Positions 2,798 through 46,857 of a stretch of DNA of 64,000 bases are shown piece after piece; position 1 is the stretch's first letter; every line of letters begins with the position of its first letter. Origin of the DNA: an uncultured Gammaproteobacteria bacterium (GTDB lineage Bacteria; Patescibacteriota; Microgenomatia; UBA8517); assembly GCA_964583685.1 (NCBI GenBank), contig CAZOVJ010000001.1:393152-457151 (forward strand), written 5' to 3'. Both the position numbers and the translations under genes were made by a program. The notes below the pieces were generated by a model. That model was given only the letters and a program-made list of their open reading frames with translations, did no database searches and had not been told where the DNA came from.

Positions 2798-4471
2798 TTA
2801 TTTAACCTCTATTATCCTAAAAGCCTCCTCTCCGTTTAAATATTTTATTTCTCTAAGTAGGCGAAAAAGACTTTCATCACTGGAGTCCTCTATGGGAATT
2901 CTGATCGGATCAGCCACAAAAAGCGTTCCCTTCTCTCTCCGATTGATTGACCAGTCAATTGGACTAAACTCAATATTATCCAATTGCTCTACCTGGCCAA
3001 CGTCGCCAACCTCACTTTCCCTTAATCTTGCCTGTTTTTGGTATTTTAGGGGATCATATTTCTGGTAAAACAGAAAAAAGATATAGGGTTGGGCAAATGA
3101 TTGTTGAACTTTTATTTTTTGATAATTATTCTGGACTGGGCTGACTGTTTCTACTATCTGCTTATAGCCATATTCCCAGTATTTTGAATCGTGCTTAGGA
3201 AGATGAATAAAATAAGCATCTAAAAAGTAGGTAAAACTTGCCAGATAGAAAAGAATTACTATTCCGCAACCCGCAACCCGCAGCCGTCTCCTCCCTATCC
3301 AAACAACTAAACTTCGTAAACCGAAGGCAGCAACAATCATCAAGGGAATCAACAAGTTATAAGAGCGGACTGCCTGAATTTGGTCCCTGGATAAAGCAGC
3401 TGGCAGAGGAGCTAAAAAGAGCCAAAGCCAAACAAATTTAACTTCTCTTTTGGCCGCTAATCTGGTCAGACTGACAAAACCAAAAATCAAGGCAATTAAA
3501 TCAGCAAACAATAAAACTCCCTGATTGGGGGCAGTATGTCTTGGATTTTGCCAATCTCCCTCGAAAAAGAGAAACCTTGTTGAGAAATGATTGAACCAGC
3601 GACCCAAAACTCCCCGAGTAAAATTAAGAGCTTCTGAATGAAAAAGATAATATCTCAAACTGCCAACTTTTTCATTTCCCTGGTCAAGAAAGTCTTGAAG
3701 ATAAACCTCTGGCCGCGGGTAGGAAAAGACACTGAATACTGACAACCTACCGGTTTTACCCTGAAAAAGACTGAAAATTATAGGCAAGGAAATGAAAAAT
3801 CCAGTCAAAAATGCGGCTAAAAGAGTTCTCTTTTTAAAACCCAGTAATTGCCTACGATAAAGAACTACCAATAATAAAACCACAATGGCTGACGACAGCT
3901 TAGCTCCCTGATAAATAAGCAGGCTTGAGCTAAAAAATAATCCAGAGAAGATTAAATATCTCTGTTTTTTAAAAGACCTGAAGAAAAAATAGATGCCTGC
4001 CAAAGTAAATGTTAGACAAACATTCATTTCCCAGGCGCCGCGACTAAAAAGAATGTGCCAGGGATTAATTACCAGTAAAAGACTGGCAATAATCGCCAAT
4101 TTATTGTTCTTAAAAACCTCTTTGATCAGTAGATAAAAAAGCCAGACTGCTAAAATCCCAGACAGAGCACTGGGAAGCCGGACAGCAAGTTCGTTCAGTC
4201 CTAATAGAGCGACAAAGGGGGTAGTTAAATATATATAAAGGCCGGGCTTGAAATCGCCAAAAGATTTGAAAATTATGGGTAAGAAATTACCATACTCATC
4301 TTTGCCTGTCTTTAAAATTGAGTAGGCATTGTACCCCAAGGCCGCTTCGTCCTGGGTCAGGTGGGGTGGGATAACCCCAAGTTTCCAAAGACGCAAAAAA
4401 CCGGCTAAAAGAAGAATCATTATCAGCAAACTTTGTTTAATTTTCATAAATTTCAAAAGCCGGCTGGCCAT
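2798..4471 (-). CDS. GT-C glycosyltransferase, ArnT/PMT family, paralog 2
   Basis: TQDEAALGYNAYSILKTGKDEYG...GLNELAVRLPSAL. Start is ambiguous (overlaps the upstream gene by 35 nt). Confidence 0.85.
   Translation of the reverse strand: MASRLLKFMKIKQSLLIMILLLAGFLRLWKLGVIPPHLTQDEAALGYNAYSILKTGKDEYGNFLPIIFKSFGDFKPGLYIYLTTPFVALLGLNELAVRLPSALSGILAVWLFYLLIKEVFKNNKLAIIASLLLVINPWHILFSRGAWEMNVCLTFTLAGIYFFFRSFKKQRYLIFSGLFFSSSLLIYQGAKLSSAIVVLLLVVLYRRQLLGFKKRTLLAAFLTGFFISLPIIFSLFQGKTGRLSVFSVFSYPRPEVYLQDFLDQGNEKVGSLRYYLFHSEALNFTRGVLGRWFNHFSTRFLFFEGDWQNPRHTAPNQGVLLFADLIALIFGFVSLTRLAAKREVKFVWLWLFLAPLPAALSRDQIQAVRSYNLLIPLMIVAAFGLRSLVVWIGRRRLRVAGCGIVILFYLASFTYFLDAYFIHLPKHDSKYWEYGYKQIVETVSPVQNNYQKIKVQQSFAQPYIFFLFYQKYDPLKYQKQARLRESEVGDVGQVEQLDNIEFSPIDWSINRREKGTLFVADPIRIPIEDSSDESLFRLLREIKYLNGEEAFRIIEVK
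3265..3285. repeat. Heptanucleotide repeat (CCGCAAC)x2 plus a degenerate copy inside a CDS
   Basis: Read directly. Encodes RVAGCG in 2798..4471. Confidence 0.7.
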
Positions 4472-6152
4472 CTAGAAAATTAATTGTTTTTAATTTGTGC
4501 CAGCCTTGAGGATAATTTCCCGGACCGGTAATCAGAAGACAGTCTTTTCCTTGACAATCCGCCTTTTCGCCACTTTCTAAAATAAATTCTCCGTTTTTAC
4601 TTGTTGGTATCTGCCAGTCATTGACAAAATAGAACTTGTCAAATCTATCCAGCCAATACCAGTTTGATTGGTAAAAGCGGATAAGCTCGGGGTCATTTTG
4701 GAATCTTGCAGGCTCCCAAGGCCAGTAAAATAAGAAAAATTCATGGGGCTCACCATATTTTTTAGTAATAATAAACTTCTCATATTTCTGATAATTAGTC
4801 CTACTATAATCAACCACTTCCTTATACCCATACTGCCAGGACCAAGAATAGTTCTGCCGATATTCAAAGGCATAAGCCTGGCCATAATTTTCAATAGACA
4901 GGCCCAAAAGGAAAATATAGATTACGGCGAATAAATACTGAGGAACAATTCCTCCCGCAGGGCGGGCTTTCAACCATTGCCATACCAAGTTCAGACCAAG
5001 AGCAGAAAAAATCATTGGTATTGGTAGAAGTACAATACTCCTTAAAACATGAGGGGCCTCTCGGGTTAGACTTGAAGCGATTGGTCCAAGAAGAAACCAG
5101 CTAAGCAACAAACGAGCACTTTTTTCTTTATTCATCCTCTTAACAACAACAATCAACCCTAGCAAAAAAAATGGACAATTGATGGCGTATAAAAGTCCGT
5201 GTTCGGGCAAACTAAATTGATAATGGCTTCCGCCCTTCAAAAACAAGAATTCTGGAGAGAAGTGAGAAAAGTAGTTGGCAAGAAAAGTCTTTGTAAAATA
5301 GGTAACCTTGTTGTGGATTAAGAGGCTAGCTAGAGGCGTTAATTCTGTCTTGAGTCGCTCCTCATTTATCCGGTTAATCATTCCCTGGTCCAAAATCTCC
5401 ACCCATTGATAACGGGCTTGGCCGACTGGGTTGAAAAGCTGGTAAAACATAGGCAGGAAGAAAAATGCAAAAATCAAAATGCAAAATGCAAAAATCTTTT
5501 TATTTTTTTGATAAAACGACAAAACTTCTCTTTTATAAATAAAACTGAGTCCTAAAAGTAAGAGGGGAACAAAAATTCGGGCAGAATTATAAGTCCAGAC
5601 TGACAGGGAAAGCAAACCAATCCCCAATAATATTGGCCAAGATTTTTTCTCTAAACCCAACCATAAGAAATAAACACCGGAAATAATCAGGGCCAGGGAC
5701 AAGTTGGCTTCTACCGCAACCCTGGAAACAAACAAACCCCAGGGCTCCAAGGCAAGTAAAAGGCCAGCGATAATGGCCAGTTCCTTGCTTTTAAAAAGTT
5801 TTTTAACCAATAAATAGGTAAACAAAACACTAAAAGTTCCTGCCAAAATCGAAGGAAGCCTAACAGATAAAGCACTCAGGCCAAAAAAGAACTCTGAAAT
5901 TAAAGTCAAATAAATATAAAACGGCAGCTTATAATCACCATAAGCCCTGAAAATAATCGGCAACCTCTTTCCCCACTCGTCTTTGCCGGTCTTCAAAATA
6001 GAATAAGCATTATAACCATGACTGACCTCATCCCAATTAAGAGCCGGCGGAACAAGGGAAACATGACTAAATCTGAGGAAAAAGGCAAGTAAAATAACCA
6101 ATATTACCAGTAAATTTTTCCGAACTAAAAAAAGCCCTTTTAATAACATCAA
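4437..6152 (-). CDS. GT-C glycosyltransferase, ArnT/PMT family, paralog 3
   Basis: NWDEVSHGYNAYSILKTGKDEWG motif. Polytopic. Confidence 0.85.
   Translation of the reverse strand: MMLLKGLFLVRKNLLVILVILLAFFLRFSHVSLVPPALNWDEVSHGYNAYSILKTGKDEWGKRLPIIFRAYGDYKLPFYIYLTLISEFFFGLSALSVRLPSILAGTFSVLFTYLLVKKLFKSKELAIIAGLLLALEPWGLFVSRVAVEANLSLALIISGVYFLWLGLEKKSWPILLGIGLLSLSVWTYNSARIFVPLLLLGLSFIYKREVLSFYQKNKKIFAFCILIFAFFFLPMFYQLFNPVGQARYQWVEILDQGMINRINEERLKTELTPLASLLIHNKVTYFTKTFLANYFSHFSPEFLFLKGGSHYQFSLPEHGLLYAINCPFFLLGLIVVVKRMNKEKSARLLLSWFLLGPIASSLTREAPHVLRSIVLLPIPMIFSALGLNLVWQWLKARPAGGIVPQYLFAVIYIFLLGLSIENYGQAYAFEYRQNYSWSWQYGYKEVVDYSRTNYQKYEKFIITKKYGEPHEFFLFYWPWEPARFQNDPELIRFYQSNWYWLDRFDKFYFVNDWQIPTSKNGEFILESGEKADCQGKDCLLITGPGNYPQGWHKLKTINFLDGQPAFEIYEN
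5462..5496. repeat. Heptanucleotide tandem repeat (AAAATGC/AAAAATC)x5 inside a CDS, in frame
   Basis: Read directly. Sense strand GCATTTT/GATTTTT encodes IFAFCILIFAF in a TM helix of 4437..6152. Confidence 0.9.
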
Positions 6153-13389: not shown

Positions 13390-15128
13390 TCTTGAGATTT
13401 TCCTTTAAACAAATAAAAGGCTGGCTCGCCGGAGGGAAAGGAAATTGCTTTAACTATTTCTAAATCTTCGGGAACCCGCTCCGGCTCCATGATTAAATTC
13501 ACCTTAATCTCTTTTTCCGTTGCCAGATAGAGGGTTTGCTCATCCAAAACCTGTCCCCAAGAATAAAAACCATCACCTCCTGGCGAGCCAAAATAGAATT
13601 TGTCAATATGAGAAACTTCGCCAAACCCCTTCAAATAAACTTTATTGTTCAAAGGAAACTCTTTTTGCCATTTATCAGGAGGATACTGATACCAAGCGGC
13701 AAAAAATACCCATGGCGGTTCATTGGTGGTTGAAATTATCACCTTATCATAGTTTTTCTCGAGCGCTTTAATAGATTGAATCGATTCCTGAAAGCCAGCA
13801 TGCCACCATCGCTCAGAATACCAGGGATTGTGCACCCAAAAATTGTGTTGGTAAAAGATAAAACTGAGAACAAAAAAGGATAAATAAATACCCATAAACA
13901 AAAACTTAAAATTTTTCGGCAACCTTCTCAAGCTCTCTAAGAGTCCATAGGCAATCAAAAATATAAGCGGAGGAAGGATTAAAATAAGCCGAGTGGCGTG
14001 TTTACCCCCTTCCCGAGTAATAGCTGCCGGAACAACTCCCACCAAGAGCCAAAAAGCAATCAGGCTTTTAATTTTCTTGTTCCTAAATCGGCTGAAGAAT
14101 AAAATCAGACCCAAAATAAGAGGAATTACTTCAATCTTATAAAACTGGCCAATACCTTCAATTGAATGGCGCAAATTTAAATCTCCTTTGTTAAAGAGAA
14201 AATCTGTTGAAAAGCTCTCAAAGTAATTGCTGAGAATATTTGAGCCCCAAAAAGTAAACTTATTATGAAAAAGTCTATCAATAATCGTTGGCTGCAGGCC
14301 TTCTCCCAGTTCTCCTCGCATCCGGGCATCAATCAACCTGCTAAATCCCACTTCAGATTCGGTCGTTGGGTCTGTCAGGACACTGATATAGCCGAACCTG
14401 GCTGCCCCGCCGCTAAAAAGAGTACTGTAAACAATGGGCAAACCGACGATGAGCAGGGCCAGGAAACTGGTAAGCAGGTGCTTCTGAGAAAGCTTAAATA
14501 TTTCTTTCCTCCAAATCAGGAAAAGAAAGAGCAAAAGAAAAGGCGTAAAAAGCTTGGCTGTGCTGTAAACCCAGGGAGTCAGACCAAAACAAAGGGCTGA
14601 GAGCCACAGCCACTTACCGTTCTTTAAGGATTTGAAAAATAAATAAAGGCCGATGAGCAAGAAAAAAAGAAGCTGAGTAACCTCGAAAGCAGCCCGACTG
14701 TATTGAATGTGCCAGGGAGAAAATGTCAAGACTGCGGCTGAAATAAGGGCAAAACACTCATCTTTTGTTATTTCCTTGACCAACAGATACAATGCCCAAA
14801 TACCAAGTATGCCAAAAATGACTGCCGCTAATCTGACCCCCAACGGACTGATTCCAAAGAGGGCAACCGTGGGCACAGTAGAATAAAGATAGAGGGGAGT
14901 CCGCCATTCTGCCAGAGAATGAAAGTGCAAGGGCCAAGGATTTCCTGAATAGTCTTTTCCTGTTTTTAAAATAGAATAAGCTTGATAGCCAACATCCAGC
15001 TCGTCGCCAAACAAAGATACAGGAACTTGCTCGATCCTCCAAAGACGAAGAAAGACTGCAACTGCCAATATCAAAAATAAGATAACTAATTTTTTCTTTT
15101 TCTCATACATATTTTCTGACCAGACCAA
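13386..15128 (-). CDS. GT-C glycosyltransferase, ArnT/PMT family, paralog 6
   Basis: FGDELDVGYQAYSILKTGKDYSGNPWPLHF. C-terminal KFYFGSP motif. Confidence 0.8.
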   Translation of the reverse strand: MVWSENMYEKKKKLVILFLILAVAVFLRLWRIEQVPVSLFGDELDVGYQAYSILKTGKDYSGNPWPLHFHSLAEWRTPLYLYSTVPTVALFGISPLGVRLAAVIFGILGIWALYLLVKEITKDECFALISAAVLTFSPWHIQYSRAAFEVTQLLFFLLIGLYLFFKSLKNGKWLWLSALCFGLTPWVYSTAKLFTPFLLLFLFLIWRKEIFKLSQKHLLTSFLALLIVGLPIVYSTLFSGGAARFGYISVLTDPTTESEVGFSRLIDARMRGELGEGLQPTIIDRLFHNKFTFWGSNILSNYFESFSTDFLFNKGDLNLRHSIEGIGQFYKIEVIPLILGLILFFSRFRNKKIKSLIAFWLLVGVVPAAITREGGKHATRLILILPPLIFLIAYGLLESLRRLPKNFKFLFMGIYLSFFVLSFIFYQHNFWVHNPWYSERWWHAGFQESIQSIKALEKNYDKVIISTTNEPPWVFFAAWYQYPPDKWQKEFPLNNKVYLKGFGEVSHIDKFYFGSPGGDGFYSWGQVLDEQTLYLATEKEIKVNLIMEPERVPEDLEIVKAISFPSGEPAFYLFKGKSQE

Positions 15129-15895
15129 AGAATGAAATTAAACAGATAATGTTTTAATACCCCGTGGTAAATTTTACTAGATGAAACAAGAAATTTCATC
15201 TTACCAGCACTGGCTCCGTGCTGGTGGATAACCTTAGCTGTAGGTAAATAATAAACCTTTAAACCTAGTTCCTTAACCCGGCGACAATAATCAAGGTCCT
15301 CAAAATACATAAAATAGCGCTCGTCCAAAAGCCCTACCCTTTTTCTTGCTTCTGGGGTAATCAAAAAGGCTGCCCCGACTATTGCCTCCACTTCTTCAGG
15401 CCTATCTAGTCTGGGTGCATATTTATCCAGAAGGCTCTTTTTTCCCAACCAATATTGTCTGATGGCCCGAGAAATGGTTGGCAATCTATAAACAGATGCT
15501 TGAACCTTTTTGTCGGGGTGCAAAAGTCTGGGGCCGACAACGCCTGCGTCAGTTGTTTCTTTGGCAAAATAATAGAGCTTGTCAATTGCTGCTTTTTTAA
15601 CCTCTGTATCCGAATTTAAAAGCAAAATAAATTCAGCCTTGGCCCTTTTTATGCCCTGGTTATTCGCTTTGGCAAATCCGAGATTCTCCTTATTTCTGAT
15701 AATTTTGATTTTTGTCCTGCAGCGGCGGGATTGATTTTTGATTTTATAGAGGGCGGCAACCGATCCATCGGTTGAGCCATTATCTACCACAATCACCTCA
15801 TACTTTATTTTTGGTTTTGATGTAAAAATAGAATTAAGACACCTAAGTAATAACTTTTTGGTATTAAAATTAACAATAATTATTGAAAGATTCAT
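15086..15895 (-). CDS. GT2 family glycosyltransferase
   Basis: LSIIIVNFNTKKLL...VIVVDNGSTDGS...LLLNSDTE (DxD-like). Confidence 0.8.
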   Translation of the reverse strand: MNLSIIIVNFNTKKLLLRCLNSIFTSKPKIKYEVIVVDNGSTDGSVAALYKIKNQSRRCRTKIKIIRNKENLGFAKANNQGIKRAKAEFILLLNSDTEVKKAAIDKLYYFAKETTDAGVVGPRLLHPDKKVQASVYRLPTISRAIRQYWLGKKSLLDKYAPRLDRPEEVEAIVGAAFLITPEARKRVGLLDERYFMYFEDLDYCRRVKELGLKVYYLPTAKVIHQHGASAGKMKFLVSSSKIYHGVLKHYLFNFILWSGQKICMRKRKN

Positions 15896-19045: not shown

Positions 19046-21478
19046 TCAAGTATAACTTTTTACCTTTCTCCTGCCAAGCAAATGGCTGGCCGGCACTAAA
19101 GTTAAGAGCAAAACCAGTGAAACCATTGATAACTTTAAACCATTAAAGAAAGATTCTGGTTGATAAACAAAACGTACCTCATGCTTGCCGCTGGGAATCT
19201 GAATTGCCCGGAAAGCAAAATCAGCCCGATAGATCTTTGTTTCTTTTCCGTCAATATAGGCCTTCCATCCCGGATAAAAGGCATCGGAAATAAAAAGCAA
19301 GCCATCTGAATCTGTTTGAACATTAATTACACTCTCCTGCTCTTCATATTTCCCGTAACTTATCTGACAAACCCCTTTTTCTCTCTTTTCTATCCCTGGC
19401 TCTTCTTCTAAAATCACTTTTTCCCTAAAGGGATATTTTGGATCAATAAGTTTTTTTAAGATCAATTGGTCATCCTTTATGACCTCCCAATCATAAACCA
19501 TAAAGGCCCGGGGAAGAACATTCTTACTCTCAAGAACAACCGTTGTTTTATCTTCAAAGGCCAAGCTAAATCTCTCAGTTCTAAAACGGCTGGGAATTTG
19601 GCCTTCTGGGTCCGGGTCATTCTTCTCATCCCTTTTTAGAGCAAGATAATACTTTGTATTCACCAGATCAAGCAAGTGTGATGTATCATTGTCAACCGTG
19701 CCGTATCTACCCACTGGATCTGTCCCCACTTTCTGACTATTTAATGCAGCCAAAAACCGAGAGATTCTCAATGGATGAATGGTTTCATAACCCTCCAGAG
19801 AATCTAATTTATAAGGTGTTCGCATATTTACAGGAACTACTCTATTCCCTGTTACCCTAAAGGGTTGTTCTTGGGAGATTAAAAAATCCAAGATTGGAGT
19901 TGTCGGAAAAATCAGTCTTCTTTCAGAAAAAGGCGTAAATTTCCATCCGAACCTAAATAATTCAAACAAAAGCAAAAACGACAAAAGTAAAAGGCCAAGC
20001 TTTTTTAATTTCTCCCATCTGGCCATAAACCAAAGAGCGACAGAAATTGTTATTAAAATAGCTGCTGGCAAAACCATATTCCTAAGAGCAACTTTATACT
20101 TGGCTATCCCACGAACAAAAAACAAACTTGGATCAGACTGGGTCATCAGGAATTTATAGACGGCAAAAGCTCCAAAGCCAGCAATTATCAAAGAAGGAAG
20201 TAATAAGGCAAAAATATATTTAAATTTGGCTCTTGCTTTCCAAATATAATCAAAGCCAAATCCCACAAGAAGAGCTACCCCAAAATTAAACAGTATTGTC
20301 GCTCTGTGAGCTGAGGCTGCTCGCATGCCAATAATATCCTCAGTCCATAAAAAGACTGGAAGGGGAGTGGGGAAAGATAAAATAAGTGAAAAAATTGATA
20401 ATATAAACAAAAACAGAACCGCTCTTTTTGTTTTTAAAAACTTTAGGCCCAAGGTTGCTAAAACAAAAACTACCACCCCAGCGTATCCAGTATTTGAGGT
20501 ATAGTCCTGGGGACCCCAGTAATTAGCGGTTGCATGATTGCCAAAATAGTCGGGGGCAAAAAATGTTATTATTTTTGACCAAGGTAAAAAGGCCCACTCA
20601 AAAGGATGTGGCTCAAAACTCCTTTGTGAAAGCCCCCATAATTCTACTGTTGGTAAAATCTGAAAAGCAGCCAGACCAAGAGCAAAAACCAAAAAGAAAG
20701 ATAAAGAGATTGTCCTTTTGATAAATTCTAAACTTCTGTCCTTGTAAAACTTTACTAACCAGAAAATAATCATGGCTATGGCCGTGTATAAACTAGTCTG
20801 GGGATAACCTGAAAGAAGTTGAAAAACCAAAGTCGATGCTAAAAGAACACCATCTTTTATTTTGCCTTTCTTCAAATATTTATCCTCAAAAAGAATGGCC
20901 AAGGGAATAAAACTTGATGCCAGTGTGTGTCCATTCCACTGGGAAAAAATAAGATTAAAACCGGAAAAAGCAAAAGCTACTCCTCCTAAAATTGATCCAA
21001 ATTTGGAGACCTTCCAATGTCTTAAGAGAAGATAGGAAAAAAAAGCAACTAGTATATGCTGGAAAGCTATTTGCAAATTCCAGGCTGTTAATTTATCAAA
21101 AAGAAAATAAACAAAATTTGTTGGCGAAAAGGGCGCCGCCTGTAGATTAGCAAAAAGTGGGGTACCAGTGAGAATATGAGGGTTCCATAAAGGCCACTGA
21201 CCAATTTTGATCAAATCAATACCCAGCATCTGTTCAGGATAGATTAATGAAACAACATCAGTAGTAATCGGATTTTTTACAGGCACTCCAACCGAGTATC
21301 CCCATTTATAATCAAGCCAGGGATAATAAACGCCAACAACAAAATCTCCGGGGATGGAAACTTGGCCAAGGAGAACCACTTTCCAAAAAAAGATTAAAAC
21401 CAGGCCAATAATCAAGACCAATGGCCAGAATCGTTTAAAGAAGGCCCAAAAACTCTTCCTCAAATCTTTCATACCCAT
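19046..21478 (-). CDS. YfhO-family (GT-C) membrane glycosyltransferase-like protein
   Basis: 810 aa. QWPLWNPHILTGTPLFA motif and C-terminal YPGWKAYIDGKE...FAFRAIQIPSGKHEV are typical of YfhO proteins. Confidence 0.65.
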   Translation of the reverse strand: MGMKDLRKSFWAFFKRFWPLVLIIGLVLIFFWKVVLLGQVSIPGDFVVGVYYPWLDYKWGYSVGVPVKNPITTDVVSLIYPEQMLGIDLIKIGQWPLWNPHILTGTPLFANLQAAPFSPTNFVYFLFDKLTAWNLQIAFQHILVAFFSYLLLRHWKVSKFGSILGGVAFAFSGFNLIFSQWNGHTLASSFIPLAILFEDKYLKKGKIKDGVLLASTLVFQLLSGYPQTSLYTAIAMIIFWLVKFYKDRSLEFIKRTISLSFFLVFALGLAAFQILPTVELWGLSQRSFEPHPFEWAFLPWSKIITFFAPDYFGNHATANYWGPQDYTSNTGYAGVVVFVLATLGLKFLKTKRAVLFLFILSIFSLILSFPTPLPVFLWTEDIIGMRAASAHRATILFNFGVALLVGFGFDYIWKARAKFKYIFALLLPSLIIAGFGAFAVYKFLMTQSDPSLFFVRGIAKYKVALRNMVLPAAILITISVALWFMARWEKLKKLGLLLLSFLLLFELFRFGWKFTPFSERRLIFPTTPILDFLISQEQPFRVTGNRVVPVNMRTPYKLDSLEGYETIHPLRISRFLAALNSQKVGTDPVGRYGTVDNDTSHLLDLVNTKYYLALKRDEKNDPDPEGQIPSRFRTERFSLAFEDKTTVVLESKNVLPRAFMVYDWEVIKDDQLILKKLIDPKYPFREKVILEEEPGIEKREKGVCQISYGKYEEQESVINVQTDSDGLLFISDAFYPGWKAYIDGKETKIYRADFAFRAIQIPSGKHEVRFVYQPESFFNGLKLSMVSLVLLLTLVPASHLLGRRKVKSYT

Positions 21479-22460
21479 ATTTTTGGCTCTCCTCTCTTGC
21501 GGCTAAAGAAAGCGTTCTCCATTTTTTTGAATCCCCTATTGTCTGCCTGGTAAAAAACAAAAGTTCTTTTGTTGTCCGCCAAAGATAGCCATTTTCCTTA
21601 TTCTCTATTATTTCTTGATGTCCACCTCCGGAAAAAACAATTGGCACTGCTCCGGTGGCCATGGCCTCGACAACACTTATACCAAAATGTTCAAGCTTCT
21701 CCGGTTCCATTTTCTCGTCAACTCCAAAACCAGATGCTGACCAAAAAAGTCTTGCTTTGCCATATAAATCCTTTAACTCATTAAAACTTGGGCTTTCAAT
21801 TATTTTTATCGGATAGCCCATGGAACTCTTTCTCAGCTTCTTAACAAAATCATTTACCCCAACTTCAACCCCACCAGCCAAAATCAGTTTCCACTCACTA
21901 AACCCAGAATCACAAAATCTTTTAAAGGCCTTTATTAAAATATCTTGCCTTTTTGCCTGCTTCAATTGAGAAAAGCGACCAATGGATACAATTAAATTTT
22001 CCTTTCTTTTGGATTTTATTTTCTCAACATCAACAGGCGGGTAAATAACAATGCTGTCAACACCATATTCTTTATCTATAAACTTTTTCGTGAAGTATGA
22101 ATTGCAGATAACTTCTCCTATCCTGAAAAATTTCATTCTATTAAGTAGGGTTTTCCCGTTCATAGAATGAAAGGGGACTTGGAAATGTAAAAAATTCTTG
22201 CGTGCACGAAGTATCGGAATACTCCCATCAGAAACCCAAAAACAAACATCGTATCCGTCTCCTCTGCCAATATCTTTGACAAAATTCACTTCTTTTAATT
22301 GAATACCGAATCTTTCTTCAATCTTTCTTTTGATATTTTCATCCTTCCATTCAACATCAACCCTATATCCCTTACCAACTAAGGCTTGGGCTACTGCCAT
22401 AGAGTAGCGCTCGCCCCCTCCCAAAGTATCCAGATATGGATTATAAATCGCTGCCCTCAT
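21435..22460 (-). CDS. GT4 (GT-B fold, family 1/4) glycosyltransferase
   Basis: EX7E motif EHFGISVVEAMATGAVPIV...GGGHQEII. Confidence 0.85.
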   Translation of the reverse strand: MRAAIYNPYLDTLGGGERYSMAVAQALVGKGYRVDVEWKDENIKRKIEERFGIQLKEVNFVKDIGRGDGYDVCFWVSDGSIPILRARKNFLHFQVPFHSMNGKTLLNRMKFFRIGEVICNSYFTKKFIDKEYGVDSIVIYPPVDVEKIKSKRKENLIVSIGRFSQLKQAKRQDILIKAFKRFCDSGFSEWKLILAGGVEVGVNDFVKKLRKSSMGYPIKIIESPSFNELKDLYGKARLFWSASGFGVDEKMEPEKLEHFGISVVEAMATGAVPIVFSGGGHQEIIENKENGYLWRTTKELLFFTRQTIGDSKKWRTLSLAAREESQKYGYERFEEEFLGLL

Positions 22461-23269
22461 TTTGCATTTTGATTTTTAAATTTTGCACTTTTTAATTGCA
22501 TTTCCCACAATTTTGCATAACTAACAAACCGACTAAACATCTGATAAATAATCTCCATAATACCAATCGGGCCGTCTAAAAAACCCAACTTGAGCACTGC
22601 TCGGTACCAAAATTCCCGAAAAACGGCGGATGAAAATCGGCAAATATTCATCTTCGGATGGCCAGCTTCAAACATCAAGCGGACTTCAATCTCTGACCAC
22701 CTATTAGTTTTTTCAACCATCTCCGTTAAGGAACGGTGAGTAAGATGAATCATTGGTTCTTTTAACTTGCCAACACTGCCTTTAATCTTCGGCTGTTCGT
22801 GAAGTTCTCCTCGCCAAGCCTCCAACTTATCCTTTTTAATCAACCTCAAAACATAATCCGGCCACCAACCACCGTGTCTCATTTCATGGCCTAGTAAAAT
22901 ATTACGCCTGGGAATAGCAAAGGCAGAGTGAACAGTGAACGGTGAACAGTGAACGGTGAACAGTGAAAGAATCTCTTTTTTAAGTTCAGGGGTTACACGC
23001 TCGTCGGCATCAATATAAAAGAGCCACTCTCCCTTGGCTTTTTCTGCTCCGAGATTCCTCCAATTTGAAAAACCCTTCTTTCTTGTTTTAATAATCTCAG
23101 CCCCATGCTTTTGGGCAATTTTCACTGTTTTATCAGTCGAGCCACTGTCAATAATAATAACCTCATCTGCCAATCCTTGAAGCGAGTTCAAACATCCACC
23201 AATCATCTTTTCTTCATTTTTGGCAACAATTATCGCACTCAAATGGACTTTTTTATTTTTCATTTCCAT
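22457..23269 (-). CDS. GT2 family glycosyltransferase carrying an in-frame heptamer-repeat insert; start trimmed to an internal Met
   Basis: LSAIIVAKNEEKMI...VIIIDSGSTDKT...YIDADE. The ORF-track start at 23323 would overlap the upstream gene by 64 nt. The C-terminal tail (EMQLKSAKFKNQNAK) is built from AAAATGC-type repeats. Confidence 0.75.
   Translation of the reverse strand: MEMKNKKVHLSAIIVAKNEEKMIGGCLNSLQGLADEVIIIDSGSTDKTVKIAQKHGAEIIKTRKKGFSNWRNLGAEKAKGEWLFYIDADERVTPELKKEILSLFTVHCSPFTVHSAFAIPRRNILLGHEMRHGGWWPDYVLRLIKKDKLEAWRGELHEQPKIKGSVGKLKEPMIHLTHRSLTEMVEKTNRWSEIEVRLMFEAGHPKMNICRFSSAVFREFWYRAVLKLGFLDGPIGIMEIIYQMFSRFVSYAKLWEMQLKSAKFKNQNAK
22460..22518. repeat. Degenerate heptamer tract (TTTTGCA/TTTTGAT/TTTTAAA) spanning a gene junction
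   Basis: Forms the C-terminal tail and stop of 22457..23269. Its first base is part of the start codon of 21435..22460. Confidence 0.75.
22926..22967. repeat. Heptanucleotide tandem repeat (RGTGAAC)x6 (sense strand GTTCACY / TTCACYG phase), in frame in a GT2 gene
   Basis: agtgaacagtgaacggtgaacagtgaacggtgaacagtgaaa encodes LFTVHCSPFTVHSAF. Confidence 0.95.
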
Positions 23270-24186
23270 GAGCCCTGACCTAAACGGCAAAGATAAAAAT
23301 CGCGAACAGCCTTTTTCTGCCATTCTCTACCTGAAAGCAAAAATTTCAGACTTTCTTTGAAAAGAGCGAGCTTTGCCCTCAAAGAAGCATATTTTATAGC
23401 AAACAAAAGTCTGTTTCGGGTAATAAAATAGTCATTTAAATTACTGCCAATTCCCGAGCTCCTGGCTACCTTGTGCCAAAGATGGGCCGAAGGTAGATAC
23501 AAAATCTGCCAACCCTTTTTCTTCATCCGTTGACACAAATCTACATCCTCTAAATACATAAAATACTCCTCATCAAAAAAACCCACTTCCTTTAAAGCCT
23601 GAGCTCTTATTAACATACAGGCTCCGCTAGCAAAATCTGTTTCCTCAACTTTATCGTATTGTCCTTTATCCAGCTCATCCACACCCCGATTACTACCCAA
23701 AAGATTTTTCCAATCGAACTTTCCTCCTGCATACCAAATAATTTTCCCCAACTCTGATTTCTTGTATCTTTTTTTGTGAAACTCAAATCCGGGTGCAAAA
23801 TAGATTTTTGGCGACAAAATCCCTGCCTTTTCATAATTTTCAGCCGCTTTAATTAATTGAAGTAAAAGACTTTTATCGACCAAGGTATCGTTGTTCAAAA
23901 GTAGCAGATAATCAGCCTTGTTTTTAAGAGCATATTTAATACCAACATTATTCCCCCCGCTAAATCCCAAGTTCTTTTTATTCTTAATTAGTTGAAAGTT
24001 GGAGGTTGAAAGTTGAAAGTTGCTGAGGCTCTCAGGTGAGCTATCAGTTGAGCCATTGTCCACCACAACCACTTCTACCCTGCAATTATCAGTTAATAGC
24101 CCCTTAAGAGATTTCAAGCACTCAAGAGTATCCTCATGGCCGTTGTAGTTCAAAATGATAATTGAAACCTTTAGCTCTTTAGCCAT
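23260..24186 (-). CDS. GT2 family glycosyltransferase
   Basis: VSIIILNYNGHEDT...VVVVDNGSTDSS...LLLNNDT. Contains the SNFQLSTSNFQL repeat insert. Confidence 0.8.
   Translation of the reverse strand: MAKELKVSIIILNYNGHEDTLECLKSLKGLLTDNCRVEVVVVDNGSTDSSPESLSNFQLSTSNFQLIKNKKNLGFSGGNNVGIKYALKNKADYLLLLNNDTLVDKSLLLQLIKAAENYEKAGILSPKIYFAPGFEFHKKRYKKSELGKIIWYAGGKFDWKNLLGSNRGVDELDKGQYDKVEETDFASGACMLIRAQALKEVGFFDEEYFMYLEDVDLCQRMKKKGWQILYLPSAHLWHKVARSSGIGSNLNDYFITRNRLLFAIKYASLRAKLALFKESLKFLLSGREWQKKAVRDFYLCRLGQGSWK
23991..24025. repeat. Heptanucleotide tandem repeat (GTTGAAA-like)x5, in frame in a GT2 gene
   Basis: gttgaaagttggaggttgaaagttgaaagttgctg encodes SNFQLSTSNFQL in 23260..24186. Confidence 0.9.
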
Positions 24187-33240: not shown

Positions 33241-34752
33241 TTATTGAATTTGGGCCACAAGGGGAAAAACCTTATCTCCGGGAAAATCTTCTGAAACCCC
33301 TCCCAAATCTTCGTAAAAAACCTTGAGCTCAAAATCTTGATAAAGAAGTTGCAAGGCATCACTGCCGGAAAGGGCAAAGAAAGCTTGTTTTGAGGTTCCT
33401 CCCCAATCTTCGGCCACAAAAGGGTAATCAGGGTCGTTAGTAAAATAAACAGCCGAACCTTTGGGTAATTGAGAATACCTTAATTTAACCTGCTTTATTA
33501 ATCTTTGTGCCAATCTACCCCGACTGGCAGCCCAGTAAGTAGAATCTGCCAATCTCACCGAGCTTATTGAGAGCAGCAAAAGGGCAGCAACAAATACACC
33601 GAAGATTGCGACAGCTAGTTTTTTGTTTTTTTTAGCCAATAGCCAATAAGCCTTAAAAGCTAAAAACCCAACCGCTGCCCAAAAAGCAGGCAAGGCAGCA
33701 GCTAGATAATGGCTTGATTTATGAAAAGGCAGAAATAGCACTGGAGCCAGAGCCAAGGGAAACCAAAAGACAAACAGCCAAAATCTTCTATCAATAAAAG
33801 TCTTTTTGTTTCTTAAAAATAAATAAGTAACGGCCGCTGAAAGAATGGTAACCGCTAAAAAGAATGTTGGGAAAATAAGGGAAAAATAATTACCCCAATG
33901 ACGCATAAGACTGGGGTTAAGCCGAAGACCTGGCCGGACAAAATCAATAACCATCTCGGGTAAACCCAAGGACCAAGCCAAATACCAGACAAGGGTGTTC
34001 AGGGTACTTTTAATATTAAAAGTAGGTTGGTATTGGGGCTCGGTTTGGGAAAAGCCGATAACGAAAAAGTTCAAATAAAGATAAAGTCCAAGTACAAAGA
34101 AAAGAGGCCAGATTTCTTTAATTGCTTTTAAAATAACCCGACCCGCATCTTTCTCTTTTAGAAAAAACAGCCCGCCCAAAAGAAAGGGAGTTGCCACTGC
34201 CAACTCATGGCAAGTCAAAGCCAGAAGGAAAGCAAAAAAGCTTGCAAATTTAAATCTAATTTTCTCCTTCTCTAGATACCTCCAAAAAATAACTAGACTA
34301 AAAAGCATAAACATGGCCGCAGCTAGGGTCTGAATCCCTCCGGCCAGATAATACAAACTGGCCATATTAGCGGCCGTAATGCCAAAGAAAAAGGCGACAA
34401 AAAAAGAAAGCCTGGCTTTAGCAAAAAGTCTTTGCATCAAAACATAAACCAGACTGATGTTTATAAAATGCAAAATCAGACTTAGAAACCTAAAAGGAAG
34501 ATGATTTAAACCAAAGATAGAATAAAAAATATTATATAAAACTTCTCTAAAAAGCGGCCGGTAAAAGGCAATCCCCCTTTGCTCAAAAGGATGAAATCCG
34601 AAAAAATTGATAAATGCTCTTAAACTACCATCTGTTCGGGCAACCTGGAAATGAAAAAAATCATCACCGGTAAAATAGACGGAAAAAATTGAGCAGTAAA
34701 GAAGGAGGACAACCAAAAAAATCAAGAGTAATGGTGCAAGCTTCTTAACCAC
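33241..34752 (-). CDS. GT-C-like polytopic membrane protein (PMT_2-like, divergent)
   Basis: N-terminal loop FTGDDFFHFQVARTDGS. 503 aa, multi-TM. Confidence 0.55.
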   Translation of the reverse strand: MVKKLAPLLLIFLVVLLLYCSIFSVYFTGDDFFHFQVARTDGSLRAFINFFGFHPFEQRGIAFYRPLFREVLYNIFYSIFGLNHLPFRFLSLILHFINISLVYVLMQRLFAKARLSFFVAFFFGITAANMASLYYLAGGIQTLAAAMFMLFSLVIFWRYLEKEKIRFKFASFFAFLLALTCHELAVATPFLLGGLFFLKEKDAGRVILKAIKEIWPLFFVLGLYLYLNFFVIGFSQTEPQYQPTFNIKSTLNTLVWYLAWSLGLPEMVIDFVRPGLRLNPSLMRHWGNYFSLIFPTFFLAVTILSAAVTYLFLRNKKTFIDRRFWLFVFWFPLALAPVLFLPFHKSSHYLAAALPAFWAAVGFLAFKAYWLLAKKNKKLAVAIFGVFVAALLLLSISSVRLADSTYWAASRGRLAQRLIKQVKLRYSQLPKGSAVYFTNDPDYPFVAEDWGGTSKQAFFALSGSDALQLLYQDFELKVFYEDLGGVSEDFPGDKVFPLVAQIQ

Positions 34753-45826: not shown

Positions 45827-46857
45827 TTTTTCTTGGCAAATTTTTTGGCTGTCTGAAGTACCTTCTCTACTGCTTTAGTAAAGGCAAGTCCCTGGATTAT
45901 TACTCCGGCTGCTGCCTTATGCCCACCCCCACCCAAGACAAGGGCTATTTTAGAAACATCAAAATCAGTCCGCGCTCTGAAACTTACTGAAAGCTTGCCT
46001 TCTTGCTTTTCCAGCATAATTATCCCAAAATCAACCCCCTTTACAACCCCGGCAAACATACTGGCTGCACCCTCATGTGCCTGTAAAGGCCTACCATACT
46101 CTAAAAATTTATTATAAGGAAGGGCTGACCAAACAAATTTAAACTTTTTTTCAAACTTCATCCCAGTAAGAAATTCGCCCCACATCTTTAAGGTATTAAA
46201 TCCCATACTGCGATAAAGGTGGAAAATAATTTTTTCTTTATCAGCTCCCCCTTTAAGAAGCTTTATGGCTGCTTCCAGGGTTTTCAAACTAGTATTGGAA
46301 AATCGGAAAACTCCTGTGTCTCCAATTATGCCAGTAAGAAGAGCTGTGGCAATATTTCTATCAATTTCAACTTTCCAATCTTTAAAAATTAAGTAAAGAA
46401 GCTCTCCAACCGAGCTAACCTTAGCATCAACTAAATTTATGTTTCCAAATTTCTCGTTTGTTTTATGATGGTCTATTACTATAAGGGGGAGGCTGGGTAC
46501 TTTTATGTCTTTATCTCCAGAAACCATGTACCAACTGGCAGAATCAAGAACAATAAAAAGATCAAATCTCAAAAAGTTATAAGTCGAAAAATCTACAACT
46601 TGAATTTTCTCAGAATAGGCTAAAAACTTAACACTTTCTGGTAGTTCATTTGGGCAGATTACTTCTACTTTTTTCCCCATTTTTTTGAGGACCTGGTACA
46701 TAGCCAGTGCGCTGCCAAAAGCATCGGGATCAGGACTACGATGGCAATTAAGCAGAATTCTCTTGGACTGCTTAATCTCTTTTAAAATTATTTTCGACTG
46801 CTGATAATTCATTGCGTGTGGACTAGTTGATATAAGGTTATTCCTCCAACTTGCCAC
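45823..46857 (-). CDS. nrnA: DHH/DHHA1 phosphoesterase, NrnA-like (oligoribonuclease / pAp phosphatase)
   Basis: DHH motif (LIVIDHHKTNEKFG), DxD (HRSPDPDAFGSA) and DHHA1 GGGH (LGGGGHKAAAG). Confidence 0.8.
   Translation of the reverse strand: MASWRNNLISTSPHAMNYQQSKIILKEIKQSKRILLNCHRSPDPDAFGSALAMYQVLKKMGKKVEVICPNELPESVKFLAYSEKIQVVDFSTYNFLRFDLFIVLDSASWYMVSGDKDIKVPSLPLIVIDHHKTNEKFGNINLVDAKVSSVGELLYLIFKDWKVEIDRNIATALLTGIIGDTGVFRFSNTSLKTLEAAIKLLKGGADKEKIIFHLYRSMGFNTLKMWGEFLTGMKFEKKFKFVWSALPYNKFLEYGRPLQAHEGAASMFAGVVKGVDFGIIMLEKQEGKLSVSFRARTDFDVSKIALVLGGGGHKAAAGVIIQGLAFTKAVEKVLQTAKKFAKKK

What the first reader, a model, noticed from the sequence alone, without database searches (positions are those of the whole stretch)
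23991..24025. GTTGAAA heptamer x5 makes a duplicated SNFQLST heptapeptide in a GT2; CCGCAAC x3 tract at 3265-3285
These are further distinct 7-nt tandem tracts inside glycosyltransferase CDSs. The recurrence of unit length 7 with different unit sequences suggests a common mechanism, for example a replication-slippage hotspot or a repeat-generating activity. Heptamer slippage in glycosyltransferase genes would be a frame-switching contingency mechanism.
Basis: partly seen in the sequence, partly recalled or inferred. Interest (0 to 1): 0.5.

Follow-up and report, generated by a model that had tools for sequence, protein, structure and literature searches.

The report
In-frame heptamer microsatellites in CPR genes
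A short, partly decayed run of a 7-base repeat sits in frame inside a sugar-transferase gene of an uncultured, small-genome (CPR) bacterium. It is one of many such 7-base runs that copying errors leave in the genes of this bacterial group, and nothing found here shows that it works as an on/off switch.

Summary
The tracts are real but overstated. 23990-24022 is AGTTGAA x4.7 at 84% match: 3 exact GTTGAAA units, with a longest perfect run of 19 nt. It encodes SNFQLST-SNFQL in a GT2 gene. 3264-3282 is CCGCAAC x2.7 in a GT39/PMT_2 gene.

The period-7 excess is strong and specific. There are 12 perfect tracts against 1.7 expected, and 6 against 0.02 for imperfect tracts scoring 12 or more. No other period stands out, and an E. 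coli polysaccharide locus shows none.

The window comes from a CPR/Microgenomates genome. In 402 kb of related CPR DNA, 14 of 15 perfect repeats of 26 nt or more with unit lengths 2-11 have period 7. All 14 lie in intact ORFs and none exceeds 35 nt.

GT2 orthologues carry such tracts at two fixed hot spots seeded by N-[FY]-[QK]-[LI] codons. At one hot spot protein length never changes, yet units are homogenised within genomes.

Tracts also occur in essential genes (trmD, pheS), are not biased to gene 5' ends, show no OFF alleles, and showed no length variants in any population data I could reach.

The best reading is slippage-born, selection-filtered coding microsatellites. A dedicated glycosyltransferase contingency switch is not supported, and the cyanobacterial STRR analogy fails.

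The parts
23990..24022 (-). Focal heptamer tract. The sense strand reads CAACTTT CAACTTT CAACCTC CAACTTT CAACT. It is 4.7 units at 84% periodic and encodes SNFQLSTSNFQL (residues 55-66).
23260..24186 (-). GT2 (GT-A fold) glycosyltransferase CDS of 308 aa that carries the focal tract. Copy 1 of the heptapeptide forms the end of helix 50-55 plus loop 56-62. Copy 2 forms strand 63-68.
3264..3282 (-). CCGCAAC x2.7 perfect tract (sense TGCGGGT...). It encodes part of RRRLRVAGCG, a length-variable loop before a C-terminal hydrophobic, presumably transmembrane, segment.
2798..4471 (-). PMT_2/GT39-type membrane glycosyltransferase CDS of 557 aa that carries the CCGCAAC tract.
2252..2281 (-). AAGGCAA x4.3 perfect 30-nt tract in the PMT_2 gene 1126..2796. 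It encodes YFAFCLLPFAL.
22927..22967 (-). AGTGAAC/GGTGAAC x5.9 tract (perfect at period 14) in the neighbouring GT2 gene. It encodes FTVHCSPFTVHS.
22458..22491 (-). Degenerate heptamer tract (sense GCAAAAT/TCAAAAT, x4.9, 74%). It spans the stop codon of the GT2 gene 22457..23269 and the ATG of the GT4 gene 21435..22460.
5458..5496 (-). CAAAATG-type tract (perfect 5475-5493) in the PMT_2 gene 4437..6152.
1575..1605 (-). Decayed AAGCAAT x4.4 tract in the PMT_2 gene 1126..2796.
48359..48387 (-). TGAACAG x4.1 tract (81%) near the 5' end of the PMT_2 ORF 46809..48413.
47200..47222 (-). GCGATAA x3.3 tract in the PMT_2 ORF 46809..48413.
58699..58721 (+). TTCACCS x3.3 tract in trmD. It coincides with an 8-residue insertion in the interdomain linker relative to the TrmD of PDB entry 3ky7.
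58395..58412 (+). TCACYAG x2.6 tract in trmD, in a loop 3 residues longer than in the 3ky7 TrmD.
33633..33648 (-). TAGCCAA x2.3 short tract in ORF 33241..34752.
15731..15745 (-). TTGATTT x2.1 short tract in the GT2 gene 15086..15895.
57006..57022 (-). AATAAAT x2.4 short tract in the PHO4 phosphate transporter gene.

Best explanation
The tract is a coding-region heptanucleotide microsatellite made by replication slippage (slipped-strand mispairing) in a lineage whose slippage has a strong 7-nt register. It has been filtered by selection so that only frame-preserving outcomes survive.

Proposed steps:
1. Seed (read directly from the sequence). The codons for the strand-initiating motif N-F-Q-L (AAC TTT CAA CT) already contain a 5-nt direct repeat at 7-nt spacing.
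2. Expansion (inferred). Slippage adds 7-nt units. Inside a CDS only a net change of 21 nt (3 units, 7 codons) is viable. A 12-nt seed therefore becomes a 33-nt tract of 4.7 units, or 11 codons, which duplicates a heptapeptide into the loop just upstream of beta-strand 3 of the GT-A fold.
3. Fate (inferred from comparison). The tract then either decays by point substitution or is re-homogenised by further compensated slippage. The window copy shows decay: 2 substitutions, 84% match and a longest perfect run of 19 nt. Some relatives show re-homogenisation, with perfect 32-35-nt tracts at the same sites.

In its present state the window tract is most likely a nearly frozen 7-residue loop duplication with no switching role. 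CCGCAAC x2.7 and about 15 other period-7 tracts in the window are smaller or older products of the same process.
For: Period specificity:
- Window: 12 tracts against 1.74 expected, and 6 against 0.02 at score 12 or more, with other periods at 0-1.
- 402 kb of CPR DNA: 14 perfect period-7 tracts of 26 nt or more, against 1 for all other periods 2-11.
- E. coli rfb/cps control of 50 kb: 1 short tract.

Length and frame:
- Perfect tract lengths are 26-35 nt with a mode of 32-34 nt and none longer. All lie in frame in intact ORFs.

Seeding at fixed sites:
- In GT2 orthologues and paralogues the tracts recur at the same two structural sites. They encode NFQFSIFNFQF, NFQFPISNFQL, KLQITNYKLQI and LSIINYQLSII.
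- AlphaFold (pLDDT 93) places copy 2 on strand 63-68 and copy 1 on the preceding loop.

Insertion origin:
- The trmD tract coincides with an 8-residue insertion in the linker relative to 3ky7.
- A simulated 21-nt deletion in the window GT2 gives SLSNFQLIKNKKNLGF. That is the spacing seen in rare orthologues such as P0058.

DNA-level turnover:
- Lag-7 residue identity in region A is 269 against a null of 192.7, sd 7.7.
- Unit identity is 0.71 within a genome, 0.57 for same-index units between genomes and 0.56 for different-index units between genomes.

Not specific to glycosyltransferases:
- Tracts occur in trmD, PHO4 and pheS.

Prior knowledge:
- Over-representation of heptamer SSRs in many bacteria, and the proposal that it reflects the DNA segment held by the polymerase, are on record (PMC4692102 citing Mrazek 2007).
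Against: - No slippage event was observed directly. No length variant was seen in any data set.
- At hot spot A the protein length is fixed: the C..D spacing is 19 in 137 of 148 orthologues and is never 7 shorter. Simple '12+21' birth cannot explain the perfect tracts there, so a length-neutral route must be assumed.
- The reason for a register of 7 is unknown.
- The sense-strand G depletion of the units (8.7% against about 20%) is unexplained.
- The sharp ceiling at 35 nt is unexplained.
- The focal tract has no close relatives. The nearest GT2 is 66% identical, so its own history cannot be reconstructed.
Confidence: 0.62

Rival explanations
1. The tract is a true contingency locus. Slippage by 7 nt reversibly switches the GT2, and other glycosylation genes, OFF and ON. 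This would diversify the cell surface, for example against phage, as in neuO or the Haemophilus and Campylobacter glycosyltransferase genes.
For: - The frame arithmetic works. A change of 7 or 14 nt gives a stop at residue 63-71, and a change of 21 nt stays in frame.
- The tract is 5'-proximal (codons 55-66 of 308) in a surface-glycan gene within a very large glycosylation island.
- Perfect 32-33-nt tracts are maintained at the same sites in orthologues, with units homogenised at fixed length. This is what repeated OFF/ON cycling under selection for the ON length would produce.
- A heptanucleotide precedent exists in neuO (PMC13001214).
Against: - The window tract is interrupted, with only 2.7 perfect units.
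- Tracts are spread along genes, at relative positions 0.03-0.90.
- They occur in the essential genes trmD and pheS.
- None of the roughly 14 long tracts is out of frame, whereas 65.6% of neuO alleles are OFF.
- No length variant appeared in 20 assemblies, 5 pattern-scan contigs or 42 cluster members. Apparent truncated alleles turned out to be a scaffold gap or contig ends.
Confidence: 0.17
2. The tracts are a dispersed repeat family like cyanobacterial STRRs. That is, one or a few heptamer consensus sequences are spread to many loci by a sequence-specific process and have an RNA or DNA-level role.
For: - The unit length is 7 and there are many loci.
- A few units recur: GTTCACY at 22927, 48359 and 58699, and CATTTTG at 5475 and 22458.
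- Identical-unit pairs number 8 against 2.2 expected, P=0.007.
Against: - 40 of 47 canonical units are distinct. The shared ones are mostly low-complexity (AAAAATC, AAAAAAG) or lie in adjacent paralogues.
- 16 of 17 window tracts are inside CDSs and translated in frame. STRRs, by contrast, are reported from intergenic and promoter regions of cyanobacteria.
- The host is a CPR bacterium, not a cyanobacterium.
Confidence: 0.05
3. Selection acts on the protein. The duplicated heptapeptide (SNFQLST-SNFQL) would be a functional peptide repeat kept by selection, and the DNA periodicity would be a by-product.
For: - Heptapeptide repeats recur at the same two sites of many GT2 orthologues.
- The region is modelled with high confidence.
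Against: - The periodicity is 7 nt, not merely 21 nt, and it includes synonymous positions. Perfect tracts occur in L002, L015 and L017.
- In region B a unit-wide base difference falls on codon positions 1, 2 and 3 in different units: position 5 is C in every unit of the window tract, T in L015 and A in L045. It gives unrelated residue changes. L015 is a distant paralogue, so this may partly reflect different seeds.
- The repeated residues differ freely between lineages (KLQI, ELRI, QLSV, QLLI, LSII).
- Many orthologues have no repeat at the same length.
Confidence: 0.06
4. The tracts are a chance or compositional artefact of AT-rich coding sequence, or an assembly artefact.
For: - The genome is 39% GC.
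- Conserved L..I..NY.L..I codons in AT-rich usage give some built-in 7-nt similarity.
Against: - Dinucleotide-preserving shuffles never reach the observed counts.
- Only period 7 is enriched.
- Orthologues without tracts have lag-7 identity at background, 9-14 of 32.
- Independent assemblies agree base for base.
Confidence: 0.02

Closest known systems
neuO heptanucleotide VNTR (E. coli K1 capsule O-acetyltransferase, CUS-3 prophage)
   Same: - The repeat unit is 7 nt and lies inside the 5' part of a CDS for a surface-glycan-modifying enzyme.
- It is translated as a heptapeptide repeat.
- The frame is kept only when the unit number changes by 3.
- The origin is strand slippage (PMC13001214).
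   Different: - neuO has 3-53 perfect units, varies within cultures (2-5% of cells differ by one unit), and is OFF in 65.6% of genomes.
- The tract here has 4.7 units at 84% match, its relatives never exceed 5.0 units, and no variant or OFF allele was found.
General over-representation of heptamer SSRs in bacterial genomes (Mrazek et al. 2007, as cited in PMC4692102)
   Same: - The excess is specific to period 7.
- Unit sequences vary.
- A link to polymerase slippage has been proposed.
   Different: - The described cases (Xanthomonas GGGAATC, Nostoc GGGGAYT) are G-rich and intergenic, and their length varies between close strains.
- Here the tracts are G-poor on the sense strand, lie inside CDSs, are capped at about 33 nt, and are length-locked.
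Cyanobacterial STRR (short tandemly repeated repetitive) sequences
   Same: They are 7-bp tandem units present at many loci in one genome.
   Different: - STRRs are reported from intergenic and promoter regions of filamentous cyanobacteria. From my own recollection they form a few consensus families.
- Here the units are diverse (40 of 47 distinct), coding and in frame, and the host is a CPR bacterium.
SSR-driven phase-variable glycosyltransferase genes of Haemophilus, Neisseria and Campylobacter
   Same: A repeat whose unit is not a multiple of 3 lies in a glycosyltransferase CDS, and one-unit slippage truncates the enzyme (general background from the abstracts listed).
   Different: - Those loci use mono- to pentanucleotide tracts that are long enough to be hypermutable, and they are polymorphic between isolates.
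- That property was tested here in relatives and not found.
Tandem repeats in Borg elements of Methanoperedens
   Same: They are perfect, recently formed tandem repeats inside ORFs that add new peptide segments (abstract of PMC9879509, listed).
   Different: - The Borg repeats are reported as creating new intrinsically disordered regions and as virtually absent from the host (abstract). I did not read their unit lengths or copy numbers.
- Here the tracts are chromosomal, strictly period 7, at most 5 units long, and at some sites length-neutral.

Membership tests
SSR-mediated contingency (phase-variable) locus | A tandem repeat whose unit is not a multiple of 3 lies within a CDS, so that one-unit slippage shifts the frame. 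| tested here: met
   The 7-nt unit lies in the GT2 CDS. A simulated change of 7 or 14 nt gives a stop at residue 63-71, and a change of 21 nt stays in frame.
SSR-mediated contingency (phase-variable) locus | The tract is long and perfect enough to be hypermutable. | tested here: inconclusive
   The tract has 4.7 units at 84% match, with a longest perfect run of 2.7 units. neuO spans 3-53 units. No mutation rate is known for short heptamer tracts in CPR bacteria.
SSR-mediated contingency (phase-variable) locus | Tract length is polymorphic among close strains or within populations, including out-of-frame (OFF) alleles. | tested here: not met
   For orthologous perfect tracts there were no variants among 20 assemblies, 5 flank-pattern contigs and 42 cluster members. 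None of the roughly 14 long tracts is out of frame. The window's own strain has no second sample, so its tract could not be tested.
SSR-mediated contingency (phase-variable) locus | Tracts are restricted to, or enriched in, surface and contingency genes and placed near the 5' end. | tested here: not met
   Tracts also occur in trmD, PHO4 and pheS. Relative positions in genes run from 0.03 to 0.90, and density is similar inside and outside the glycosylation island.
Cyanobacterial STRR | Heptanucleotide tandem unit. | tested here: met
   Period 7.
Cyanobacterial STRR | A few consensus unit sequences are dispersed at many loci (feature taken from my own recollection of the STRR literature). | tested here: not met
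   40 distinct canonical units among 47 tracts.
Cyanobacterial STRR | Non-coding location in cyanobacterial genomes. | tested here: not met
   16 of 17 window tracts are inside CDSs. The nearest relatives are CPR/Microgenomates MAGs. STRRs are reported from intergenic and promoter regions.
neuO-type translated heptanucleotide VNTR | A heptanucleotide repeat in a CDS is read in all three frames as a heptapeptide repeat. | tested here: met
   SNFQLST-SNFQL is encoded by 4.7 units.
neuO-type translated heptanucleotide VNTR | Copy number is highly variable (3-53), and about two thirds of alleles are OFF. | tested here: not met
   No tract exceeds 35 nt in 402 kb, and all are in frame.
Bacterial heptamer-SSR excess (slippage bias) | Period-7 repeats are over-represented relative to other periods and to shuffled sequence. 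| tested here: met
   The E. coli control is negative.
Glycosyltransferase family 2 (GT-A fold) | A Pfam PF00535 match above threshold and a GT-A fold. | tested here: met
   PF00535 scores 79.8 bits against a cut-off of 23.3. The AlphaFold model has pLDDT 93 and matches GlfT2 and ppGalNAc-T catalytic domains, with TM-score up to 0.76.

The most novel reading that the evidence does not exclude
The coding heptamer tracts of CPR/Microgenomates bacteria are 'living' microsatellites that still slip at an appreciable rate. If so, genes in their very large glycosylation islands would flicker OFF and ON by 7-nt steps. The fixed-length, within-genome homogenisation seen at the GT2 hot spots would be the evolutionary footprint of that cycling. 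This would be the first phase-variation system described in CPR bacteria, and it would be built on an unusual 4.7-unit, length-locked heptamer design. A related variant is that a dedicated homogenising activity with a 7-nt register exists in this lineage.
Probability: 0.18. Interest if true: 0.7.

Novelty: new variant of a known kind. Interest (0 to 1): 0.45.

Why it matters
As posed, a glycosyltransferase frame-switch, the finding is not supported, and the focal tract is probably a nearly inert 7-residue loop duplication.

The wider pattern is worth a proper census for three reasons:
- In these gene-dense genomes, long perfect SSRs are almost exclusively of period 7.
- They sit in frame inside conserved genes at sites seeded by ordinary codon motifs, and they stop at about 33 nt.
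- At one GT2 site they evolve in concert with no change in protein length.

That gives a clean natural system for two questions. One is why bacterial replication slips in a 7-nt register, a bias noted in 2007 and, according to a 2015 paper, not followed up in detail since. The other is how microsatellites are born, renewed and constrained inside coding sequence.

The pattern also gives a concrete, read-level test of whether CPR bacteria use phase variation at all. My library searches found no paper linking Patescibacteria or the Candidate Phyla Radiation with heptanucleotide repeats or SSR phase variation.

Tried and rejected
1. Population variation at the focal tract. The window GT2 protein exists once in about 15 billion proteins, and its only other contig is identical, so no test was possible.
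2. Length variation at orthologous perfect tracts.
   - Ten assemblies each of the P0055 and P0048 populations showed no tract indels. The indels seen in the P0048 set lie in a divergent recombinant segment at 7.2-8.5 kb, away from the tracts.
   - The single metagenome scan used flanks and a 21-51-nt gap. It returned 5 contigs, all with a 42-nt gap.
   - Ten clusters at 90% identity or more showed no slippage variants.
3. Apparent OFF or variant alleles, each of which had another explanation.
   - P0122: the truncated ORF diverges from P0055 where locus L037 stops matching L017, far downstream of the tract; the tract itself is unchanged.
   - P0127: contig end plus point differences.
   - P0306: scaffold gap of Ns.
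   - The 254-aa members of the P0080 cluster: these are the neighbouring gene, linked through a fused ORF.
   - The 7-aa length difference in the P0133 cluster: a swapped N-terminal module.
4. STRR-like shared consensus. Only weak sharing of units was found.
5. CCGCAAC tract as a 7-aa insertion. The alignment with 40 orthologues and 11 paralogues shows a length-variable loop but no clean +7.
6. Lag-7 peptide analysis in the GT39 family. It is noisy because the hydrophobic, repetitive sequence gives many repeats at other lags as well.
7. Literature search for heptamer SSRs or phase variation in CPR/Patescibacteria. Nothing was found in the held library.
Full report
OBSERVATION.
The plus strand at 23990-24022 reads AGTTGAA AGTTGGA GGTTGAA AGTTGAA AGTTG. 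Tandem Repeats Finder reports period 7, 4.7 copies, 84% matches and score 52.

The tract lies on the antisense strand of ORF 23260..24186. This ORF encodes a 308-residue GT2 enzyme (PF00535, 79.8 bits). The tract is translated as S55-NFQLST-SNFQL66.

The second tract is perfect for 19 nt at 3264-3282, as CCGCAAC x2.7, and the third unit carries a mismatch. It lies in ORF 2798..4471, a PMT_2/GT39-type membrane glycosyltransferase.

A Logan unitig from run SRR3095939 is 100% identical over 21137-24963.

IS IT MORE THAN CHANCE?
Yes, and the signal is specific to period 7.
- Perfect period-7 runs of 15 nt or more number 12, against a mean of 1.74 (maximum 6) in 100 dinucleotide-preserving shuffles.
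- Runs of 19 nt or more number 3, against 0.01. Periods 4-6 and 8-12 are at expectation.
- With a score that tolerates mismatches, period 7 gives 8, 6 and 3 tracts at thresholds 10, 12 and 14. The shuffles give 0.23, 0.02 and 0.00. Every other period from 4 to 12 gives 0 or 1.
- Sixteen of the 45 TRF rows have period 7.
- A 50-kb E. coli K-12 rfb/cps polysaccharide region, analysed the same way, has a single 16-nt period-7 run.

CONTEXT.
The window is 39% GC and is packed with overlapping genes.
- About 50 kb is a glycosylation island. It holds at least 14 GT2 genes, about 16 PMT_2/GT39-like membrane proteins of 500-590 aa, a GT4, YfhO, a Polysacc_synt flippase and a methyltransferase.
- After the island come a MacAB-like ABC exporter, PHO4, a PhoU-like gene and trmD.
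- The nearest GT2 relatives (46-62% identity) are in MAGs labelled Woesebacteria, Blackburnbacteria, Daviesbacteria and Levyibacteriota, that is, CPR/Microgenomates.
- The exact protein occurs once in the 15-billion-protein collection, and the next best hit is 66% identical. No sister strain is available.

THE TRACTS ARE NOT A GLYCOSYLTRANSFERASE SPECIALITY.
- Sixteen of the 17 period-7 tracts in the window are inside ORFs. Their relative positions run from 0.03 to 0.90.
- Four tracts lie in the last 10 kb outside the glycosylation island: one in PHO4, two in trmD and one intergenic.
- The trmD tract at 58699-58721 coincides with an 8-residue insertion in the flexible interdomain linker relative to the TrmD of PDB entry 3ky7. 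The tract at 58395 sits in a loop that is 3 residues longer.
- In a relative (L009), a perfect TCAAAAA x3.9 tract lies in pheS.
- Phase-switching of trmD or pheS would be lethal, so the process that makes the tracts is general.

A LINEAGE-WIDE PATTERN.
I examined 402 kb of non-redundant CPR DNA, made up of the window plus loci fetched around GT2 relatives.
- There are 14 perfect period-7 tracts of 26 nt or more. All other periods from 2 to 11 together give one.
- Tract lengths are 26, 27, 29, 30, 32, 32, 32, 33, 33, 33, 33, 34, 34 and 35 nt. None is longer than 5.0 units.
- Every one lies in frame in a long open reading frame and is read as a heptapeptide repeat.
- The value 33 nt equals 11 codons. 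It is also what a 12-nt seed (a 5-nt direct repeat at 7-nt spacing) becomes after the smallest frame-preserving addition of 21 nt.
- Units are diverse, with 40 distinct among 47. Sharing is only modestly above null, with 8 identical pairs against 2.2, mostly low-complexity units or adjacent paralogues.
- Units are G-poor on the sense strand. G is 8.7%, against a 19.7% background and 20% expected for heptamers that avoid stop codons in all three frames. I cannot explain this.

TWO HOT SPOTS IN THE GT2 FAMILY.
Among 120 orthologues, runs of 4 or more identical residues at lag 7 number 14. Every other lag gives 0-3. The runs fall at two sites.

Region A is the 13 residues before the VVDN strand. 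Examples are KLQITNYKLQI, LSIINYQLSII and ELRIKNYELRI.

Region B lies before the I-x-N-K-x-N-L-G-F strand. Examples are the window's SNFQLSTSNFQL, plus RFKIQDSRFKI and YKLKNAEYKL.

The same peptide type appears at region B in more distant GT2 paralogues. L003 has NFQFSIFNFQF from perfect (AATTTTC)4.7. L015 has NFQFPISNFQL from perfect (AATTTCC)4.6.

The AlphaFold model of the window protein has pLDDT 93.3. It shows helix 50-55, loop 56-62 and strand 63-68. Copy 2 of the heptapeptide is therefore beta-strand 3, and copy 1 fills the loop before it. The fold matches GT-A catalytic domains such as GlfT2 and ppGalNAc-T.

Both hot spots begin with N-[FY]-[QKE]-[LIV]. In AT-rich codons this motif is AAYTWYMAAWT, which is a built-in 5-nt repeat at 7-nt spacing. 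This natural seed explains why tracts recur at these places, and it makes them look linked to glycosyltransferases.

CONCERTED EVOLUTION AT FIXED LENGTH.
- In region A the spacing from the conserved Cys to the DN motif is 19 residues in 137 of 148 orthologues. It is never 7 shorter.
- Even so, lag-7 identity there totals 269, against 192.7 (sd 7.7, maximum 217) when columns are shuffled. Lags 5, 6, 8 and 9 are at or below null.
- The repeated four-residue blocks covary between lineages: KLQI/KLQI, ELRI/ELRI, QLSV/QLSV, QLLI/QLLI and KLSV/KLSV.
- At the DNA level the tracts share one register but differ in unit sequence. L002 has TATCAAT x4.7 (perfect), L017 TACAAAT x4.6 (perfect), L044 TACTAAT and L012 TACCAAC.
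- Mean unit identity is 0.71 within a genome. It is 0.57 between same-index units of different genomes and 0.56 between different-index units. This is the classic signature of concerted evolution.
- A single '12+21' insertion cannot explain the perfect tracts in region A. They must have been made or renewed with no net length change. Possible routes are a backward plus a forward slip in one tract, short-lived intermediates 21 nt shorter or longer, or correction of misaligned heteroduplex. I could not distinguish among these.

In region B the signal is weaker. In the spacing class that contains the window protein (D..NLGF = 29, 47 proteins) lag-7 identity is 58 against 43.9, sd 5.4.

Unit position 5 is C in all five units of the window tract, T in all five units in L015 and A in all five in L045. 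L015 is a distant paralogue, so part of this may reflect independent expansion from different seeds.

A simulated 21-nt deletion in the window gene gives SLSNFQLIKNKKNLGF. That is the spacing of rare orthologues such as P0058.

IS IT A SWITCH?
The arithmetic allows it. A change of 7 or 14 nt ends the protein at residue 63-71, and a change of 21 nt is in frame. Every test I could run was negative.
- Ten assemblies each of two Woesebacteria populations carrying (AAATTAC)n tracts show no tract indels. These sets were selected by identical protein, so the test is biased.
- An unbiased flank-pattern scan of JGI metagenomes, allowing changes of -21 to +9 nt, returned 5 contigs from at least 3 lineages. 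All have the same 42-nt interval.
- Forty-two members of ten 90%-identity clusters have no slippage variant. The one 7-residue difference is a swapped N-terminal module.
- Three apparently truncated alleles have other explanations: a downstream break in the match with the tract unchanged (P0122), a contig end (P0127) and a run of Ns (P0306).
- None of about 14 long tracts is out of frame. By contrast, 65.6% of neuO alleles are OFF, and 2-5% of cells in one culture differ by one unit (PMC13001214).
- The focal tract is also interrupted, which should lower its slippage rate further.

COMPARISON WITH WHAT IS KNOWN.
- A 2015 paper states that heptamer SSRs were found over-represented in many bacterial genomes in 2007. 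It cites the idea that this reflects the length of DNA held at the polymerase active site, and it notes that no detailed work had followed by then (PMC4692102). The described cases (Xanthomonas, Nostoc) are G-rich, intergenic and length-variable.
- Cyanobacterial STRRs are 7-bp repeats reported from intergenic and promoter regions, and their function is unknown.
- neuO is the closest functional precedent: a translated heptanucleotide VNTR in a glycan-modifying enzyme.
- The present tracts share the unit length and the presumed slippage origin with all three. They differ in being short, capped at about 33 nt, G-poor, inside conserved CDSs and, at one site, length-locked while homogenised.
- Library searches found no paper that links Patescibacteria or the CPR with heptanucleotide repeats or SSR phase variation.

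VERDICT.
- The 'common mechanism' inference is right.
- The 'contingency switch in glycosyltransferases' reading is not supported, and the STRR analogy fails its membership tests.
- The most likely account is replication slippage with a 7-nt register acting on codon-encoded seeds. Selection passes only frame-preserving outcomes in tolerant loops, and the window tract is an ageing example (confidence about 0.6).
- An active 7-nt switch remains possible (about 0.17) and can be tested directly with reads.
- The lineage-wide pattern, especially fixed-length concerted evolution of coding heptamer tracts, appears undescribed. It is the part worth following up.

Noticed in passing
window 252-53502: About 50 kb is an unusually dense glycosylation island. 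It holds at least 14 GT2 genes, about 16 paralogous PMT_2/GT39-like membrane proteins of 500-590 aa (17-37% identical to each other), a GT4, YfhO, a Polysacc_synt flippase and a methyltransferase. Many of the genes overlap by a few bases.
   Followed up: partly
window 58170-58880 (trmD), tracts at 58395-58412 and 58699-58721: The essential tRNA methyltransferase gene trmD carries two heptamer tracts. The second coincides with an 8-residue insertion ([11 protein letters not shown]) in the interdomain linker relative to the TrmD of PDB entry 3ky7.
   Followed up: yes
window 22458-22491: A degenerate heptamer tract (sense GCAAAAT/TCAAAAT) spans the last codons and stop of one GT2 gene and the ATG of the next GT4 gene (ATGA overlap). 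Slippage here would alter a C-terminus and a start codon at once.
   Followed up: partly
window 22927-22967: This is the longest tract in the window at 41 nt, with alternating AGTGAAC/GGTGAAC units (perfect at period 14). It encodes FTVHCSPFTVHS in the GT2 gene next to the focal one. The same GTTCACY sense unit recurs at 48359 and in trmD at 58699.
   Followed up: partly
all period-7 tracts in the window and in L002-L017: On the sense strand the repeat units are depleted in G: 8.7% against a 19.7% background and 20% expected for stop-free heptamers. C is not depleted. This strand asymmetry is unexplained.
   Followed up: partly
L016 19038-19072 and 20086-20119: Two adjacent GT4-family genes in a Levyibacteriota genome each carry a perfect (CAAATAC)x5 tract at a similar relative position. 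Both encode IPNTKYQ repeats.
   Followed up: no
L009 19584-19610: A perfect (TCAAAAA)x3.9 tract sits inside pheS (phenylalanyl-tRNA synthetase alpha), just upstream of the conserved LLRTHTS motif. It encodes SKIKNQKSK.
   Followed up: partly
L027, L038, L039, L041 (about 90 nt around the region A tract); proteins P0133 and P0315: The N-terminal modules of the GT2 genes look mosaic. Four lineages share an identical stretch of about 90 nt around the tract while their genes are about 86% identical overall. P0315 is more than 90% identical to P0133 over the C-terminal 200 residues but divergent over the first 100. This suggests recombination breakpoints near the tracts.
   Followed up: partly
GT39 orthologues P0183-P0245, residues 6-15: Orthologues of the window's PMT_2 protein show covarying lag-7 peptides at the N-terminus (LVIRHWLLVI, FIIHNSLFII, LIIDNWLLII, LITNHWLLIT). 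This may be a third hot spot of the same kind. The signal is noisy because the hydrophobic sequence is repetitive at other lags too.
   Followed up: no
protein P0323 (549 aa, ENA contig of 3285 nt): In one assembly the two adjacent GT2 genes, orthologues of 23260..24186 and 22457..23269, are called as a single fused ORF. This implies an indel or a sequencing error at their short overlap.
   Followed up: no
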